A stretch of 64,000 nt of DNA from Candidatus Poribacteria bacterium (lineage in GTDB: Bacteria > Poribacteria > WGA-4E > WGA-3G), in NCBI GenBank assembly GCA_965237835.1, contig OZ250160.1, positions 2,530,146-2,594,145 on the forward strand, in the 5' to 3' direction. Shown piece after piece: positions 28,926-52,620 of this stretch. Position 1 is the stretch's first letter, and every line of letters starts with the position of its first letter. The notes beneath the pieces were generated by a model. That model was not told the origin of the DNA, did no database searches, and was given only the letters and a program-made list of their open reading frames with translations. Both the position numbers and the translations under genes were made by a program.

Positions 28926-29025
28926 TTATTTGTTCTCCGTGGTTGTTTTATTATCGGGTTACAAAAGGAATGTCCGAGGCGTAATGAATTGCGCGACTAC
29001 GAACAATCCTGTCCTACAAGATATG

Positions 29026-31712: not shown

Positions 31713-31811
31713 TTGCAGTCAAGGATCTGAACCAGGATTATTTCCATCTATTGTCCTTGAATGTCCGAGGCGCAATAAATTGCGCGACTACAAACGAAGA
31801 TTTAAAATTAT

Positions 31812-34588: not shown

Positions 34589-34710
34589 CAGGGTTATTTA
34601 GTTTTAGGCTTTTTGTCCATTTTATCCGAAAAGTCGCGATTCGGAGATCGCTCGGACAGCGGAAAGTCTTAAATTGAAAACCTAAATATTCGGAGAACTA
34701 AATAGCCCTG
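34589..34710. mobile_element. MITE-like element family 1 (single copy) with 8-bp target-site duplication CTATCTGT
   Basis: TIRs cagggttatttagtt / aactaaatagccctg. Flanking direct repeat ctatctgt. Confidence 0.65.
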
Positions 34711-45256: not shown

Positions 45257-45459
45257 TATCAAATGACCATTTTCCTATGGGCGCGGTTTCATGAAGATTA
45301 AGAATTTAAGTTGGGTTCAAGCTCGAATTACCTAATTTATTTTTTAATCTTCATCCAACCGTGCCCATTTTTCTAAGTAAACTTTCCATTTTTTCTTCAT
45401 AATTGAATACTTTAGAAGTTGACACGGTATTATACCAAATTAACGGGATTTGTCCTATT

Positions 45460-45760
45460 TTCCGGATGGTAAGTGCGGTTTCCGAACCGCACCTTATGCG
45501 TCAATTTAGTGGTCCCCAACCCGGCAGGAGCGGTTTCTAACCGAACCTTTTTGTATCAACATCTCAAATAACGCAAAGGACGAGAATATCAGTGTTCGTA
45601 GTCGCGCAATTCACGCGCCTCTTTTCTTTGAATGTAAGAGGCGCGTGAATTGCGCGACTACAAACGAGTTCTTTCCTTAAATTGACGCTTATGGTGCGGT
45701 TTCCTAGCCGCACTGATAGATTGGAATCAAGTTAATTTGGTATTAGTTTCCCTTTAGTTT
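45460..45760. repeat. Cluster of three REP families (A: GTAG-gtgcggtt..aaccgcac; C: GTAG-tcgcgcaattc..attgcgc; E-type tail)
   Basis: ggtaagtgcggtttccgaaccgcacc, cgtagtcgcgcaattcacgcgcc...ggcgcgtgaattgcgcgactac, ggtgcggtttcctagccgcac. Confidence 0.55.
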
Positions 45761-46216
45761 CTATTTCTGTTCAATGGTTCTCTCTTGTAAGGACGACTTC
45801 CTAAATAAAATGCGCGAAATCTTAAACAAAATTACCCCGTGAAGTTGGTAAAATTCTTTTACATTTCCTGCAAATGGTAGTAAAATAGGGTGAATTTATA
45901 CGCTACAAGGATCTCCAGGAATCTAACTATGGATGTTGAACTACCGAAAGAGAAATATGATCAATTAATCAATGACGGTTACTGTGTCGTTGAACATGTC
46001 TTAAAGGAAGCTATGCTCTCACAACTTAGATCAGTAACCGACGAATTGCTTGACGCACAGACAGATGATGAACGCGATGCACACCGTTCGTCTGGTAGCA
46101 TGATTAGTGTGTATAAACATTCTTTTTTTGCTGAACTGGTAGTTTATCCTGAAGCATTACGGACCCTTGATGCTTTGGGATTTTTGAGACCAAAATGGTC
46201 GTCAGGATATGTCATC

Positions 46217-47669
46217 GGGTGTGTAAAGTTTTTGGCATGAACATCACGCAGCTTTTGTATTTGGATACCAATATCTGTCCCAGGCATCATTCTTCAACAA
46301 ACACCGCCAAGAAAGCACAGCATTGATCCCCGGTTTCTCCCATCTCATAGAAGCTTGTTTGCATCTTTGTCCGACAACATGTTTACATGCACTCTCAATC
46401 ACACCACTTCCAATCTGATACCCCTTTTCCCGAAACTTTTTATACCGCATACGATCAGAATGTTTTTCAAAATACTTCGCTTCTCTTTCTAAGGTTTCAC
46501 ATACTTCCAGGTTTTGAGCAGCTAAGTTTCGGATGCGTGCGACTACTTCTGTGATGTTGCCAGCGTCCAGCAGGGGTTCCACCTCTTTTATCCATTTTCC
46601 GGTAGTTTCTGTTTCAGTCTCTCCGAAGGCGTGTTTGGCAACATTGAACAGATGAGATTTGGCGTGCATATAATCCACAATCTCAACAGCGTTTGGGAAG
46701 TATTTATCAGCTAAGTTCCAAATCCACGCCGCACCATCTCCGATAAAGACAATCTCCTGGTTTGTTATAGTTTCTTTATAGATACCAATGTTCGTTGCTA
46801 ACGCAAACAACTCCTTACCAAAGTGTTCCGCATCAGAACGACTGGCAATATACCGGATGCTTGATGTTCTGGCACTCGGTGTCGCATCAGAACCGTGTTG
46901 TGGATAGTCTTTGTAAATACAGCCAACTTTCACCTCATGCCACCCATCAGGTGAGTTCGTGTGGCACCCATCACAACTCACATACCACCGCTGATTGTCT
47001 TCAAGCGTTTGTGTTTCCACCTGTTCTGGCACACACAACGCTTCTGACCATTCACCCACTTTTTGATGCAGTGTCGTGTGGCTGACTTCTATCCCCTGAC
47101 GCGACAACTCCTCAGAGGCTTCTCTAAAGTCAAGACGCGCGGCCAAGCGACACATCGCTTCTGCCACACGACGCGTGTATTGTCCACGCAACTTTTGCTT
47201 AGCATCCCACGGCACATAGGTATGTCCAAGAGCACAACGATACACCCAACGCTCAACACTAATAACGCCACAAAGCGTCGTGAAATGTCGCTCTCTCAGA
47301 CGCAACGGACGACATGCTCGGCGACACTCAGGACATTCAATAGGTTCACGGACTTTCTCACCAGCCTCTTTAGAGATGCACATCTCTAAAAGCCTTTGTT
47401 CCCACGAACGAACCGCTTCAGATACAAGAACCTCCGCATCTTCTAACGATACACACCCCTCTGAGGTGATGTCTCTCACAAGATCGTTCACTTCTTCTAC
47501 AAACTTGTTCGCTTCTTCTCTAAACTCATTGATTTCACAACTTTTTAATGATATACTAAACATTGGTATCCTCCTTGATAAATGGAAGTTTTAGGAAGGA
47601 TACCATTTTTATGAATATATCGCAAGTTCTCCACTCAAATCACATTCATGCCAAAAACTTTACACACCC
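46217..47669 (-). mobile_element. Intact IS element (ISKra4-like) with 25-bp perfect terminal inverted repeats and a 9-bp target-site duplication TATGTCATC
   Basis: The left end gggtgtgtaaagtttttggcatgaa equals the reverse complement of the right end ttcatgccaaaaactttacacaccc. tatgtcatc is duplicated at both junctions. Confidence 0.75.
46244..47563 (-). CDS. Transposase (ISKra4-like family, DDE type)
   Basis: 439-aa ORF filling the IS, with N-terminal Zn-finger-like CPECRRAC...C..C and a DDE-like core (IVFIGDGAAWIWN...DYMHAKSHL). Confidence 0.6.
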   Translation of the reverse strand: MFSISLKSCEINEFREEANKFVEEVNDLVRDITSEGCVSLEDAEVLVSEAVRSWEQRLLEMCISKEAGEKVREPIECPECRRACRPLRLRERHFTTLCGVISVERWVYRCALGHTYVPWDAKQKLRGQYTRRVAEAMCRLAARLDFREASEELSRQGIEVSHTTLHQKVGEWSEALCVPEQVETQTLEDNQRWYVSCDGCHTNSPDGWHEVKVGCIYKDYPQHGSDATPSARTSSIRYIASRSDAEHFGKELFALATNIGIYKETITNQEIVFIGDGAAWIWNLADKYFPNAVEIVDYMHAKSHLFNVAKHAFGETETETTGKWIKEVEPLLDAGNITEVVARIRNLAAQNLEVCETLEREAKYFEKHSDRMRYKKFREKGYQIGSGVIESACKHVVGQRCKQASMRWEKPGINAVLSWRCLLKNDAWDRYWYPNTKAA

Positions 47670-48233
47670 TATGTCATCAGCAAACCCGCTCAGAGTCCAC
47701 CCCTCTTTTGGCATCAGGATTGGTGGGGTTGGAACGACCCGTGCAGCTACACAGCATTACCCCAGCAGCTATTTTTGATGTATTATCTGGTTGACACAAC
47801 ACCATATAACGGATGCCTTCGCGTAATAAAAGGTTCGCACCTTAAGCGGCATCCACTCCATGATATATTGCCAAACGCACATGGTGCGGAACTGCAGCGT
47901 GTGGAAAATCCGAACCATCCCGTATTTCAGCATTTCCCTGATGAGGTAGACATAATCGTAAATGCTGGTGACCTCGTTATCGGTGATTCTCGCCTGTTGC
48001 ATGCCTCACACGGCAATCAATCTGATGAACACCGCACAGTCATAACGCTTTGGTATCACCCGTTTTTCGCGCTATTACCGGCAGGGATGCAAGCACATAT
48101 AGGTAGGCTTAGACAGAGTCTCGCTTGGACAGATGCAGATTGGGAACGGATTGCTGAACTTGTCCCAGTTTTTGAAGGAGATGCTGAACCTATGAAATGG
48201 AATCGAGCACCTGGACCTGAACTGACATAACAA

Positions 48234-48355
48234 CAGGGCTATTTAGTTCTCCGAATATTTAGATTTTCAATCTAAGACTTTCCGCTGTAGGAGCGATCTC
48301 CGAATCGCGACTTTTCGTCTAAAATGGACAAAAAGTCTAAAACTAAATAACCCTG
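48234..48355. mobile_element. MITE-like element family 1 (single copy) with 8-bp TSD CATAACAA
   Basis: TIRs cagggctatttagtt / aactaaataaccctg, flanked by cataacaa on both sides. Confidence 0.65.
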
Positions 48356-48457
48356 CATAACAAGATTTAATTTGAAAGAGATTATATCTCATGATATACT
48401 CTACAGCAAAAAAGTTTTCGGTTTATAGTCGTGACGCCTAAAGAATAGGAGTTTGCC

Positions 48458-49216
48458 ATGCCACAGCCCCCGATTTTTCATACTTATACTTTCGGTGATC
48501 AAGAACGCGAAGAATTAGATCGTGATGGTCATTATGCCCTCCCAGGACTATTGACAGATGATGCTCAGGAACGATTGACAGAATCGTTGGCTCGGATTGA
48601 ATCACTTATACCTGGTTGTAAACAAGGATATGAACCGAACCGATTTTCTGCTGAGTATGATAGTTATCTTGAAAGTCTTATCCCTCATCCCCAAATGCTT
48701 AAACTCGCGCGTGAAGTACTCGGTGAAGATATTCGATACGACCACTGCGTTAGCCTCAATCGCCGGGGTGGCAATGGTGGCATCGGATGGCACAGCCACG
48801 GATACTCAGAAGATGATCCGCGCTACGGTTTTGTCCGCATCTTCTTCTATGTCAACGGATTTGAGGCAAATGATGGTGGTTTGAAGGCAGTCCCTGGAAG
48901 CCATCTGTACCGAGATCCAAAAATTCATGGTGCGACTGATGAGTTGTTGCAAAAAGGATGGTTAGCAGGAAAAACCCATCATGACACGGGTGAACCGTTG
49001 GAAATTGAGGCTTTATCGGTACCACCAGGAACGGTCGTATTGATGTGGACGCATGCGGCACATGCAGTAACACCAAGAAAACAGGATAGCGATACCAGAT
49101 GGACAGTCGTATACGCCTATCGTAAACCCGGTAAAGATGCTGGTGCGCGGTGGATCACTCCAGAATTTGAACGCAAACCTATCCCCGGTGCAGAAGGACT
49201 TATGTCTCTATATTAA
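48458..49216 (+). CDS. Second PhyH-family Fe(II)/2OG dioxygenase (intact)
   Basis: GWHSHGYSEDD, LKAVPGSHL, HAAHAVTPRKQDSDTRWTVVYAY. Confidence 0.7.
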   Translation: MPQPPIFHTYTFGDQEREELDRDGHYALPGLLTDDAQERLTESLARIESLIPGCKQGYEPNRFSAEYDSYLESLIPHPQMLKLAREVLGEDIRYDHCVSLNRRGGNGGIGWHSHGYSEDDPRYGFVRIFFYVNGFEANDGGLKAVPGSHLYRDPKIHGATDELLQKGWLAGKTHHDTGEPLEIEALSVPPGTVVLMWTHAAHAVTPRKQDSDTRWTVVYAYRKPGKDAGARWITPEFERKPIPGAEGLMSLY

Positions 49217-49399
49217 CGTGAGTTCGGTGTCCGAAATAACGTGAGTTTTGGTATAGATCAATACCTTCGCCGCCGACGCCGGACGCGGACGACCCCGCAT
49301 CTATGGTGATCGTTTCAACCCACGACAGATTGACGCAAAATACTGTGTTTCTACCGACATGATCGGGAATCTGAAAACCGAAGTATATCAAATGAAACT

Positions 49400-50120
49400 A
49401 CGTCACAAAGCGGTAGGTGCGGTTTCCTACACCGCACCTTATGCGTCAATTTAAGAAAAAGTCTGCGTTTGGACAAACACCTCTCAATAAGCATGAGGAC
49501 TGAGACTGTCTTATATTTAGTCCCGTAGGGACGATATGTTTATAGTACCTCGTCCCGCAAACCCATCTCTTCAGTTCCATCCGAGCGAAATGTGTATAAT
49601 GTCTTATATATAAACATTCCGCCCCTACGGGGAAACCAAAGAATTGGGGGTGCTTCCGTTGCTATAAACATTGCGTCCCTACGGGACTAAAGAGGGTTTC
49701 TCGGACACGGAAAATCACTAAATTGACGCTAATGGTGTGGTTTCCTAACCGCACCATTAGCGTCAATTTAAGGAAATAAACCTATATTTTGGATATCTTA
49801 GCCCCAGCGGGGCGGAATGTGTATAGACCACGATCCATACCAAACTCAAGCCCCAGCAGGGCGAAAGGTGTATATGGGCACATGTTGTCAGACATCTGTC
49901 ACCCCGAATCAACGCCAAATGCGCGTATGGCATTTGTCGGGGTTCAAGAGACTGTTGGACACCGTTTTCTATATACCTGTCGCACCGCTGGTGCTAAGAT
50001 GTGATTTACCAAAGCCTCGGGGGAGGCGAAAGATGTATCAGACGCACTAAATTGACGCCCATGGTGCGGTTTCCTAACCGCACCGATAGATTGGAATCCC
50101 GTTAATTTAGTATTAAACCT
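49400..50120. repeat. Mosaic REP/BIME-like cluster with hairpin+GAA(A/T)NNTGTNTA modules
   Basis: A copy of the 300-bp unit (49440-49700), followed by ccccagcggggcggaatgtgtataga, ccccagcagggcgaaaggtgtatatg, caccgctggtgctaagatgtgattta and cctcgggggaggcgaaagatgtatcag. Confidence 0.6.
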
Positions 50121-50346
50121 TAAAGCACGCTACCAGGGGGCGAAGTATTTACACGAAACATTAAAAATACTTCCGCAAAAACCTGATCCTATTGTTATTG
50201 AACAAATCGCTCAACATCTGGGGTCAATCGGTGCTATTCATCAAACGCAACCTGAACTAAACCCCAGATAATTGGCGAAGGTATTGATACTAATGTTGTT
50301 TCATTTAATGCAGTTTTGATTGGAAAAATGGACATTTAGTCCACTA

Positions 50347-52329: not shown

Positions 52330-52620
52330 TGAAGGTATGAAACACCTGTGGTGCGATTAGAAACCACACCATTAGCGTCAATTTAGCGGTCCTCCAGGGC
52401 CGGTAGGTGCGGTTTCCTAACTGCTCCTTTTGTATCAACATCTCAAATAACGCAAAGGACGAGAATATCAGCGTTCGTAGTCGCGCAATTCATTGCGCCT
52501 CTTTTCTTTAAACGAGTTCTTTCCTTAAATTGACGCCTGTGGTGCGATTAGAAACCACACCTACCGGTCCTGGAGGATCAGTGATAAATTGATACCTATG
52601 CGTCAATCAGAAAAGATACC
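52330..52620. repeat. REP cluster (families A and C) in the long intergenic region
   Basis: ggtgcgattagaaaccacaccattagcgtcaattta, ggtaggtgcggtttcctaactgc, cgtagtcgcgcaattcattgcgcc, ggtgcgattagaaaccacacctacc. Confidence 0.5.

What the first reader, a model, noticed from the sequence alone, without database searches (positions are those of the whole stretch)
45890..48230. Recent IS insertion splitting a PhyH dioxygenase gene: 25-bp perfect TIRs, 9-bp TSD, ORFs rejoin exactly
The IS (46217-47669) has perfect 25-bp terminal inverted repeats and a duplicated tatgtcatc. Excising it plus one TSD copy fuses 45890-46216 to 47679-48230 in frame (...SGYVISKPAQSPPLFWHQDWW...). The insertion is therefore recent and the element probably active. 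An intact PhyH paralog (48458-49216) lies 230 bp downstream, which may buffer the loss.
Basis: seen in the sequence. Interest (0 to 1): 0.5.

Follow-up and report, generated by a model that had tools for sequence, protein, structure and literature searches.

The report
Recent ISKra4-family insertion splitting a dioxygenase gene
A 1.45-kb mobile DNA element of a known family (ISKra4) recently inserted into, and inactivated, a PhyH-type dioxygenase gene in a sponge-symbiont (Poribacteria) genome; this is real and well documented but ordinary biology.

Summary
A 1453-bp insertion sequence (46217-47669) has perfect 25-bp terminal inverted repeats and a perfect 9-bp target duplication (TATGTCATC). 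It sits after codon 96 of a 279-aa PhyH gene.

- **Element family:** its 439-aa transposase scores above NCBI's curated cut-off for the ISKra4 family. It has an intact DDE triad and models onto the IS256-family ISCth4 transposase fold.
- **Empty site:** a metagenome contig 98.6% identical carries the uninterrupted gene with a single TATGTCATC.
- **Recent and probably active:** the same 5.93-Mb Poribacteria chromosome holds a second copy differing by 2 nt with its own 9-bp duplication. A related genome holds at least 9 copies.
- **Paralog buffering not supported:** the neighbouring 252-aa gene is only a distant PhyH relative and a conserved tandem partner. Dispensability is better shown by at least three other null alleles of the same gene in close relatives.
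- **Target choice:** relatives sharing the same repeats (about 69% aa identity) insert 16-18 bp upstream of TTGACA boxes, the published ISKra4 behaviour. This lineage shows no such signal.

It is a new member of a known kind, of low interest.

The parts
45929..46216 (+). 5' fragment of the PhyH dioxygenase gene (codons 1-96). As an ORF it reads on for 7 codons (GCVKFLA) into the IS and stops at 46240.
   Evidence: It is 100% identical to residues 1-96 of the rejoined protein. The intact allele P0001/L003 starts at the same ATG.
46208..46216 (.). Left copy of the 9-bp target-site duplication, TATGTCATC.
   Evidence: The empty-site contig L003 has a single copy.
46217..47669 (-). Complete insertion sequence, 1453 bp, ISKra4 family, with its transposase on the minus strand.
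   Evidence: A second copy, L001:2895-4347, is 99.86% identical.
46217..46241 (.). Terminal inverted repeat at the transposase 3' end, GGGTGTGTAAAGTTTTTGGCATGAA.
   Evidence: The first 22 bp recur exactly in more than 116 stretches of genome-collection contigs, nearly all labelled Poribacteria.
46244..47563 (-). Transposase gene, 439 aa. It has an N-terminal helical region, a Cys-rich motif (C77-x2-C80, C110, H114) and a Mutator/IS256-like DDE core: D198, D276, D297-x2-H300 and E390.
   Evidence: NF033572 scores 239 bits against a cut-off of 205. These residues are invariant or nearly so in 26 homologues and are placed on a predicted RNase H-like fold. The best solved fold match is the ISCth4 transposase.
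47564..47644 (-). Transposase leader. A Shine-Dalgarno GGAGG lies about 7 nt before the ATG. A 9-bp stem, 47597-47605 (UGGUAUCCU) with 47564-47572 (AGGAUACCA), covers the 3' half of the Shine-Dalgarno and the spacer up to the start codon. A candidate promoter is TTGCGA (47620-47625), 17 nt, then TG-n-TATCCT (47597-47602).
   Evidence: The fold is (z = -2.3). Both arms are invariant in 12 copies that are about 75-100% identical to the window IS over the full element, while their surroundings vary; there is no covariation. The promoter assignment is my reading of the sequence and is inferred.
47645..47669 (.). Terminal inverted repeat at the transposase 5' end.
47670..47678 (.). Right copy of the 9-bp target-site duplication, TATGTCATC.
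47679..48230 (+). 3' fragment of the PhyH gene (codons 97-279 plus stop). It carries the H108-x-D110 iron-binding motif and LLHASHG. No start codon is in frame before TTG 47775 / ATG 47778.
   Evidence: The ENA gene call is a 150-aa PhyH fragment.
48458..49216 (+). Neighbouring intact 252-aa distant PhyH-family gene. It is a conserved tandem partner, not a close paralog. A promoter-like site (TTGAAA-17-TATACT) lies at 48372-48400.
   Evidence: The gene is retained in all null alleles of the upstream gene.

Best explanation
A single-gene DDE insertion sequence of the ISKra4 family (prokaryotic Mutator-like transposases) integrated into the coding sequence of a PhyH-type Fe(II)/2-oxoglutarate dioxygenase gene. 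The host is a Candidatus Poribacteria chromosome from a sponge-symbiont lineage.

Shown:
- The element has exact boundaries, identical 25-bp ends and a 9-bp staggered-cut duplication.
- An intact allele without the element exists in a 98.6% identical relative.
- A near-identical second copy lies on the same chromosome, and there are many copies in related genomes.
- The transposase has all conserved catalytic residues.
- The gene is cut after codon 96, upstream of the HxD iron-binding motif, so neither fragment can be a working enzyme.

Inferred:
- By fold similarity to the IS256-family ISCth4 transposase, the element probably moves by copy-out/paste-in. The transposase would bind both identical ends, a circular copy with abutted ends would form, and it would be pasted into a target cut with a 9-bp (sometimes 8-bp) stagger. 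The donor copy stays in place, which fits the growth in copy number.
- Transposase expression is probably driven by an internal promoter whose extended -10 lies in the upstream arm of a conserved stem. Only read-through transcripts from outside would contain both arms and hide the 3' half of the ribosome-binding site and the spacer before the AUG.
- The insertion is recent and either neutral or tolerated. The same gene has been lost independently in close relatives, and Poribacteria carry very many PhyH genes.
For: - Boundaries, inverted repeats, duplication and rejoining.
- Family: NF033572 at 239 bits against a cut-off of 205, while ISLre2, ISH6 and the Mycoplasma-ICE models all fall far below their cut-offs.
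- Catalytic residues: D198, D276, D297xxH300 and E390 are invariant or nearly so in 26 homologues. In the model (pLDDT 80, pTM 0.72) D198 lies in beta1, D276 directly after beta4, and E390 in a helix after a long helical insert. The top solved fold match is the ISCth4 transposase, E = 5.6e-9, probability 1.00.
- Empty site: L003.
- Second copy: L001, 2 nt different, duplication ATGTGAATG.
- Other sites: 17 distinct insertion sites of transposases at least 96% identical, mostly with perfect 9-bp duplications, including at least 9 copies in one 6.6-Mb genome.
- Recency: 10 synonymous against 2 non-synonymous codon differences from the intact allele.
- Leader stem conserved.
- Other null alleles of the same gene in close relatives.
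- PhyH abundance in Poribacteria (PMC3909097).
Against: - No transposition has been observed. Activity is inferred from sequence integrity and polymorphism.
- Only copies with an exactly identical transposase could be counted in the source genome (2). The whole chromosome could not be scanned.
- The copy-out/paste-in mechanism rests on a distant fold match (TM about 0.5, 11-14% identity), not on any circle-junction evidence.
- The D(2)H motif lies 21 residues after D2, slightly outside the 11-19 reported for the superfamily.
- The leader stem has no covariation support because both arms are invariant. Their conservation could instead reflect the promoter and ribosome-binding site alone.
Confidence: 0.93

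Rival explanations
1. The insertion is old and fixed. The element is a dead relic and the gene was already a pseudogene.
For: No direct evidence of mobility was obtained. Several other broken alleles of this gene exist in relatives, so the gene may have been under relaxed selection.
Against: - The inverted repeats and duplication are perfect.
- The 439-aa ORF is intact, with all conserved residues.
- The two copies differ by 2 of 1453 nt.
- An empty allele exists at 98.6% identity.
- The split gene has no further lesions and a 10:2 ratio of synonymous to non-synonymous differences.
- The exact 150-aa 3' fragment was found only in this chromosome.
Confidence: 0.03
2. The structure is an assembly artefact: an IS copy wrongly placed inside the gene by the assembler.
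For: The source is a metagenome-assembled chromosome (ctg495931, about 48x). Repeats are classic sites of misassembly.
Against: A misjoin would not create a perfect 9-bp duplication of unique target sequence on both sides, nor leave the two gene halves exactly contiguous in frame. The 1.45-kb element is short compared with long reads. Sister copies show the same 9-bp rule.
Confidence: 0.02
3. The IS-bearing state is ancestral, and the intact allele in L003 arose by precise excision.
For: Formally, a single comparison cannot give polarity.
Against: The great majority of the closest homologues are intact and about 279 aa long, and those that carry a source name are Poribacteria or allied uncultured phyla. 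Several strain-level alleles are also intact (P0258, P0262, P0268). Loci from two other Poribacteria assemblies show an intact, IS-free gene. Precise excision of a DDE insertion sequence, removing one duplication copy, is rare (established knowledge).
Confidence: 0.02
4. Loss of this PhyH gene is positively selected in this clade, and the IS is merely one of several mutational routes to the same adaptive null phenotype.
For: At least four independent lesions of the same gene occur in genomes whose flanks are 95-98% identical:
- this IS;
- a 363-bp insertion at codon 61 (L139, L140);
- a deletion of about 1.2 kb of host sequence leaving 47 aa (L144-L149, three samples);
- a 404-bp 3' remnant in a rearranged context (L141-L143).

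The downstream gene is always kept.
Against: Intact alleles persist in the same clade. The gene is conserved at 72-87% identity in the next tier of Poribacteria-type homologues. Recurrent loss is equally expected under relaxed selection in a genome with many PhyH paralogs (PMC3909097). No frequency or fitness data are available.
Confidence: 0.2

Closest known systems
ISKra4 group of the ISKra4 family (p-MULT 4 prokaryotic Mutator-like transposases; Guerillot et al. 2014, PMC3909097 is not this paper: the reference is PMC3942029)
   Same: - The transposase passes the curated family model.
- It is a single-ORF IS of about 1.45 kb.
- The inverted repeats are perfectly complementary; the paper reports 83-100% for this group.
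- It has a Mutator-like DDE with a long helical insert between D2 and E. Here the spacing is 114 aa, against 99-138 in the paper.
- Duplications are 8-9 bp.
- Relatives sharing the same repeats in other Poribacteria insert 16-18 bp upstream of TTGACA, on either side. This is the behaviour published for the group.
   Different: - Poribacteria are not among the host phyla listed in that survey.
- The nearest relatives outside its own 90% cluster are at most 75% identical in protein, so it would receive a new IS name.
- The window's own lineage shows no promoter-proximal signature: 0-1 of 17 sites, against 10 of 15 for the relatives, Fisher p = 5e-4.
- This copy lies inside a coding sequence.
- The D(2)H motif is 21 aa, not 11-19 aa, after D2.
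IS256 family (ISCth4 transposase; PDB 6xg8, 6xgx, 6xgw)
   Same: It is the best solved structural match to the modelled transposase (E = 5.6e-9, probability 1.00, TM about 0.5). The two share the superfamily, the DDE order, the helical insert and the (C/D)xxH motif. ISCth4 is the structural model for copy-out/paste-in transposition (my knowledge of the ISCth4 work from the Dyda laboratory).
   Different: There is no sequence-level match: no hit in PDB sequences and no IS256 model among the NCBIfam hits. Structure-based identity is 11-14%. It is a separate family within the superfamily.
ISLre2 / TnGBS family (p-MULT 3)
   Same: It is the second-best HMM hit (81.5 bits). Homologues carry the related Pfam family PF06782. 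The family shows the same promoter-upstream targeting as the window element's relatives.
   Different: The score is far below the family cut-off of 200. ISLre2 and TnGBS insert in one orientation because their inverted repeats are asymmetric. Here the repeats are identical, and the relatives insert in both orientations.
PhyH / phytanoyl-CoA dioxygenase superfamily (PF05721); nearest solved relatives are SnoK and ectoine hydroxylase
   Same: The rejoined protein matches PF05721 over the whole domain (1.1e-20). It has the HxD motif (H108, D110). It shows weak sequence similarity to SnoK 5epa (6e-8) and to ectoine hydroxylase.
   Different: The substrate is unknown. The ectoine-hydroxylase equivalog scores 24 bits against a cut-off of 336, so it is not ThpD. 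Here the gene is a null allele.

Membership tests
ISKra4 family IS | The transposase matches the curated family HMM (NCBIfam NF033572) above its cut-off. | tested here: met
   239.1 bits against a cut-off of 205, E = 9.7e-71, covering model positions 19-422 of 422.
ISKra4 family IS | [quoted passage not shown] | tested here: met
   D198 lies in beta1, D276 just after beta4, and E390 in a helix after helices 298-379. The D2-E spacing is 114 aa. D198, D276 and E390 are invariant in 26 homologues.
ISKra4 family IS | A C/D(2)H signature 11-19 aa downstream of D2. | tested here: inconclusive
   D297-Y-M-H300 is present right after beta5. D297 is invariant and H300 nearly invariant. It lies 21 aa after D276, just outside the published range.
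ISKra4 family IS | Terminal inverted repeats that are nearly perfectly complementary (83-100% in the ISKra4 group). | tested here: met
   25 of 25 bp.
ISKra4 family IS | Direct target repeats of about 8-9 bp, an element of about 1.4-1.6 kb and GGG ends. These figures are recalled from ISfinder/TnPedia and were not checked against a source here. | tested here: met
   The window and L001 have 9-bp duplications. Across 30 or more copies in both lineages the duplication is 8 or 9 bp. The element is 1453 bp, with ends GGG...CCC. The reference values themselves were not verified with a tool.
ISKra4 group, promoter-targeting subset | Insertion 13-17 bp upstream of the -35 box of sigma-A promoters at more than 20% of sites. 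| tested here: not met
   For the window lineage (transposase at least 96% identical), 0 of 34 flanks have TTGACA with at most 1 mismatch at offsets 15-19, and one has TTGATA at offset 14. The window site lies inside a coding sequence. The feature is met for relatives sharing the same repeats, in 10 of 15 elements. This is a feature of a subset, not of the family.
ISLre2 family | The transposase matches NF033529 above its cut-off. | tested here: not met
   81.5 bits against a cut-off of 200.
IS256 family | Sequence-level membership (a family HMM or sequence match to IS256-type transposases). | tested here: not met
   No IS256 model appears among the NCBIfam hits. A profile search of PDB sequences finds nothing, including ISCth4. 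Only the fold is similar.
PhyH (PF05721) Fe(II)/2OG dioxygenase | A full-length domain match plus the 2-His-1-carboxylate motif. | tested here: met
   PF05721 scores 75 bits against a cut-off of 22, covering profile positions 4-212 of 213. H108-Q-D110 is present and a distal His lies in LLHASHG. The metal ligands were not checked on a structure.
Close paralog pair (279-aa and 252-aa PhyH genes) | Sequence similarity high enough to suggest a shared substrate or redundancy. | tested here: not met
   The best BLASTP segment is 27% identity over 60 aa, E = 0.005. The pair is conserved as neighbours in two other Poribacteria assemblies.

The most novel reading that the evidence does not exclude
Two Poribacteria IS lineages share the identical 25-bp ends but choose targets differently. 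Their transposases are about 69% identical. The relatives integrate precisely 16-18 bp upstream of -35 (TTGACA) boxes. The window's lineage has lost or relaxed that targeting and lands mostly inside genes, which makes it a more mutagenic, currently expanding variant. If this is real, the pair is a natural experiment for mapping the still unidentified determinant of promoter targeting in Mutator-like bacterial transposases.
Probability: 0.4. Interest if true: 0.4.

Novelty: new member of a known kind. Interest (0 to 1): 0.22.

Why it matters
As a single event it matters little. It is one IS knocking out one of many PhyH genes in an uncultured sponge symbiont.

It does document three things:
- A clean, polymorphic insertion, with occupied and empty alleles, of an unnamed ISKra4-family element. 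The group is widespread in Poribacteria genomes, appearing in more than 116 stretches of GTDB representative contigs, nearly all labelled Poribacteria.
- The mobile elements in these genomes (this IS, a 121-bp MITE and other elements) are actively remodelling this locus.
- This particular PhyH gene is repeatedly lost among close relatives.

The contrast in target choice between two lineages with identical ends could be useful to people who study promoter-targeted transposition.

Tried and rejected
- **Pfam scan of the transposase:** no hit, although homologues carry a precomputed PF06782. The family was assigned with NCBIfam instead.
- **Junction 22-mer in JGI metagenomes:** a pattern matching both the empty and the occupied allele found nothing.
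- **Rfam:** nothing reached gathering score in the window. Sub-threshold miRNA-model hits at 45575-45679 reflect a perfect palindrome, not an RNA family.
- **Covariation for the leader stem:** none, because both arms are invariant. The stem remains an inference.
- **PDB sequence search with a transposase profile:** no hit.
- **Promoter upstream of the insertion sites:** I looked for a sigma-70-like promoter 16-17 bp outside the window copy and the L001 copy and found none convincing.
- **Sulfatase remnants:** sulfatase genes follow the PhyH pair in the two assemblies examined, but no remnant is in the window.
- **Inverted repeats on the 363-bp insert in L139:** none found.
- **A motif separating the two lineages:** the differences between the transposases are scattered and no single motif could be singled out.
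- **Generic promoter and terminator scan:** counts were no higher than in shuffled sequence.
Full report
**1. Check of the observation**

- The element spans 46217-47669, which is 1453 bp.
- Its first 25 bases, GGGTGTGTAAAGTTTTTGGCATGAA, are the exact reverse complement of its last 25. Identity stops at base 26.
- The 25-mer occurs nowhere else in the 64-kb window, even with 3 mismatches, and never in 100 shuffles.
- The nine bases before the element (46208-46216) and after it (47670-47678) are both TATGTCATC. The repeat does not extend further on either side.
- Deleting the element and one repeat copy fuses the flanks into one open frame.

One correction is needed. The frame most likely starts at ATG 45929 (MDVELPKEKY...), not GTG 45890, giving 279 aa. 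That is the length of nearly all close homologues.

**2. What the element is**

The only long ORF inside it (46244-47563, minus strand, 439 aa) has no Pfam hit. It does score 239 bits against NCBIfam NF033572, the ISKra4 family transposase model, above the curated cut-off of 205. ISLre2 (81 bits), ISH6 (53 bits) and the Mycoplasma ICE transposase-like model (42 bits) all fall far below their cut-offs. These four families plus IS256 are the prokaryotic Mutator-like transposases described by Guerillot et al. 2014 (PMC3942029).

The hallmarks of that superfamily are present:
- D198 in VSCDGCH and D276 in IGDGAAW.
- D297-x-x-H300 directly after the fifth strand.
- E390 in GVIESAC, 114 residues after D2. 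The published range is 99-138.

All of these are invariant or nearly invariant in 26 homologues that are 53-75% identical to the window protein.

An AlphaFold model built on that alignment (pLDDT 80, pTM 0.72) gives the expected order of elements: beta1-beta2-beta3-alpha-beta4-alpha-beta5, a long helical insert, then the helix carrying E. Its best match among solved structures is the IS256-family ISCth4 transposase (E = 5.6e-9, probability 1.00, TM about 0.5). No PDB sequence matches at the sequence level. The D(2)H motif lies 21 residues after D2, against the published 11-19, which is a minor departure.

**3. Origin, empty site and other copies**

An exact-protein look-up places the window on ENA assembly ERZ26167216, contig ctg495931. 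This is 5.93 Mb at about 48x, and the "_c" suffix suggests it is circular. The host is Candidatus Poribacteria, on two grounds:
- Most of the source-named homologues among the closest hits to the dioxygenase are labelled Candidatus Poribacteria.
- Nearly all of the more than 116 stretches of GTDB genome contigs that carry the element's end sequence are labelled Poribacteria.

The same chromosome carries a second copy about 310 kb away (L001). It is 1453 bp long, differs at 2 positions, encodes an identical protein and is flanked by its own perfect 9-bp duplication, ATGTGAATG.

The rejoined dioxygenase found a 279-aa protein that is 99% identical (P0001). Its contig (L003, ERZ23495126 scaffold_233624) aligns to the window with the IS removed at 98.6% over 1072 bp. 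The alignment runs straight through the insertion point with a single TATGTCATC.

Against that allele the split gene differs at 10 synonymous and only 2 non-synonymous codons and has no other lesion. Most of the divergence therefore accumulated while the gene was under purifying selection. The exact 150-aa 3' fragment is on record only for this chromosome. The insertion is therefore recent.

The transposase's 90% cluster has 158 member sequences. Look-ups of three members gave 15 more distinct insertion sites of elements 96.6-99.7% identical in nucleotide sequence. At least 9 of these are in one 6.6-Mb genome, and most have perfect 9-bp (one 8-bp) duplications. This supports a lineage that is active or was active very recently.

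**4. How it probably works**

The following is shown:
- The ends are identical.
- Duplications of 9 bp, occasionally 8 bp, indicate a staggered target cut.
- The catalytic triad is intact.
- Copy number has grown within genomes.

The following is inferred:
- **Copy-out/paste-in transposition.** By fold homology with ISCth4, and by what is known of IS256-type elements (my knowledge of the ISCth4 structural work), transposition is probably copy-out/paste-in through a circular intermediate with abutted ends, leaving the donor copy in place.
- **Protection against read-through transcription.** The 106-nt leader contains a 9-bp stem, UGGUAUCCU (47597-47605) with AGGAUACCA (47564-47572). The stem covers the 3' half of the GGAGG ribosome-binding site and the spacer up to the AUG (z = -2.3). 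Both arms are invariant in 12 copies that are about 75-100% identical to the window IS over the full element, while the loop and flanks vary. With no variation there is also no covariation. The upstream arm also reads as an extended -10 (TG-n-TATCCT), placed 17 nt after TTGCGA. If that is the promoter, native transcripts would start downstream of the upstream arm and be translatable. Read-through transcripts from the host gene would fold and stay silent. This is the classic IS10/IS50-type protection, and here it is only an inference.

**5. Target choice**

Guerillot et al. reported that ISKra4-group elements with near-perfect inverted repeats insert about 16 bp upstream of sigma-A -35 boxes, in either orientation. 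I tested this in two groups.

*Relatives sharing the same ends (about 75% nt, about 69% aa identity).*
- Among 138 flanks next to exact copies of the end sequence in Poribacteria genomes, TTGACA reading away from the element occurs 20 times at offsets 15-20. About 0.3 are expected by chance. The reverse hexamer shows no peak.
- Among full-length or degraded elements of this group, 10 of 15 have the hexamer (at most 1 mismatch) at 16-18 bp.

*The window's own lineage (transposase at least 96% identical).*
- Only one of 17 distinct sites has anything similar: TTGATA at offset 14. Fisher p = 5e-4.
- Many of its sites have called genes running into the element's ends. The window copy lies inside a coding sequence.

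So the family trait is reproduced in the relatives but not in this lineage. The differences between the two transposases are scattered, and I could not identify a responsible motif. This is a lead, not a conclusion.

**6. Consequence for the gene and the buffering idea**

The insertion falls after codon 96, upstream of H108-x-D110. The 5' fragment lacks all catalytic residues and the 3' fragment has no start before codon 129, so the allele is null.

The neighbouring 252-aa gene is a PhyH-family member (7e-8), but its similarity to the broken gene is only 27% over 60 residues. The 279-aa and 252-aa genes lie next to each other, about 100-120 bp apart, in two other Poribacteria assemblies. They look like a conserved pair with distinct roles, not redundant copies. 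A promoter-like site lies directly upstream of the 252-aa gene (48372-48400). That gene is retained in every rearranged allele, so a polar effect is not expected.

Recurrent loss is better evidence that the broken gene is dispensable. In genomes whose flanks are 95-98% identical I found the following:
- A 363-bp insertion between window positions 46112 and 46113 (L139, L140).
- A deletion from about 45400 to 48056 that leaves a 47-aa remnant (L144-L149, three samples).
- A 404-bp 3' remnant in a different context (L141-L143).
- Intact alleles alongside these (P0001, P0258, P0262, P0268).

Poribacteria are known for a very high number of PhyH genes (PMC3909097). I cannot tell whether the repeated loss is neutral or selected.

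**7. Comparison with known systems, and verdict**

The element meets the tested criteria for the ISKra4 family: HMM score above cut-off, DDE architecture, perfect inverted repeats, 8-9 bp duplications, and the expected size and GGG ends. It is at most 75% identical in protein to anything outside its own cluster. It would therefore receive a new IS name, and it is a new member of a known kind.

The start codon and the remark about paralog buffering are not supported. A specialist would not be surprised by any of this, so interest is low. The most interesting residue is the apparent difference in target choice between two lineages that share identical ends.

Noticed in passing
window 48234-48354 (also 579-700, 710-831 and 34589-34710): This is a 121-bp MITE-like element with terminal inverted repeats CAGGGCTATTTAGTT / AACTAAATAACCCTG. 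It is inserted 3 bp after the PhyH stop codon and flanked by an 8-bp duplication, CATAACAA (48226-33 and 48355-62). It is absent from the empty-site contig L003 and from all related loci examined, where alignments jump from 48233 to 48356. It is therefore a second recent insertion in this strain. The window holds four copies, two of them in tandem. Its ends also turn up next to IS insertion sites in other genomes, for example L115, L078, L116 and L120.
   Followed up: partly
window 45598-45661 (arms also at 28985-29000, 31776-31791 and 52477-52492): This is a perfect palindrome with 26-bp arms (GTAGTCGCGCAATTCACGCGCCTCTT ... AAGAGGCGCGTGAATTGCGCGACTAC), about 270 bp upstream of the PhyH start. 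It belongs to a REP-like repeat family and is what produced the sub-threshold miRNA-model hits in Rfam. The second IS copy (L001) lies beside a half copy of the same repeat.
   Followed up: partly
L139:2435-2797, L140:1-50, L144-L149, L141-L143: The same 279-aa PhyH gene carries other independent null alleles in close relatives.
- A 363-bp insert at codon 61. Its two ends carry direct copies of a CCCCGCC...GGGCGAGG hairpin and it has no inverted repeats, so it may be an IS200/IS605-type non-autonomous element.
- A deletion removing about 1.2 kb of host sequence (window about 45400-48056, IS excluded) and leaving 47 codons.
- A 404-bp 3' remnant in a rearranged context.

Intact alleles coexist with these.
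   Followed up: partly
L124-L132 (ENA ERZ25072854 ctg60466, 6.6 Mb): This genome carries at least 9 copies of the same IS, 96.6% identical in nucleotide sequence. Several lack a matching duplication, but their flanking 9-mers pair up across copies:
- GATAGTCAC: L124 left, L132 right.
- GTCTGCTAC: L130 left, L125 right.
- ACAGGAATA: L126 left, L130 right.
- TCATAGGTG: L129 left, L126 right.

This is the signature of IS-mediated inversions or rearrangements.
   Followed up: no
L040:4476-4650, L083:6821-7072, L029:2968-3190, L082:4343-4473, L109:316-447 and others: Pairs of the IS end sequence in inverted orientation lie only 130-350 bp apart in other Poribacteria genomes. These are probably MITE derivatives of this IS group. 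Many solo ends were also seen.
   Followed up: no
L023:6504-7983 and L104:3160-6089: Two related IS copies sit end to end. In L023 they are directly abutted head-to-tail. In L104 they are tail-to-tail and 8 bp apart. Such arrangements resemble the abutted-end junctions of copy-out/paste-in elements.
   Followed up: no
flanks of related ISs in L014, L021, L054, L072, L078, L090, L115, L116, L019, L066: TTGACA lies exactly 16-18 bp outside the IS end, reading away from the element, on either side. This reproduces the published sigma-A promoter targeting of the ISKra4 group in a phylum that the survey did not list.
   Followed up: yes
L001:1789-2743: The second IS copy on the source chromosome lies about 150 bp from another transposable element with DDE_Tnp_1, DDE_Tnp_4 and HTH_Tnp_4 ORFs. 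In L122 the IS has inserted inside an IS630-type (DDE_3) transposase gene, so the elements nest within one another.
   Followed up: no
window 49217-50346: This 1.1-kb stretch between the 252-aa gene and the sigma-54 activator gene has no ORF longer than 77 aa. It shares short repeats with 45468-45746 and with related loci. In the two assemblies examined, the corresponding position after the PhyH pair holds sulfatase genes, which are missing here.
   Followed up: partly
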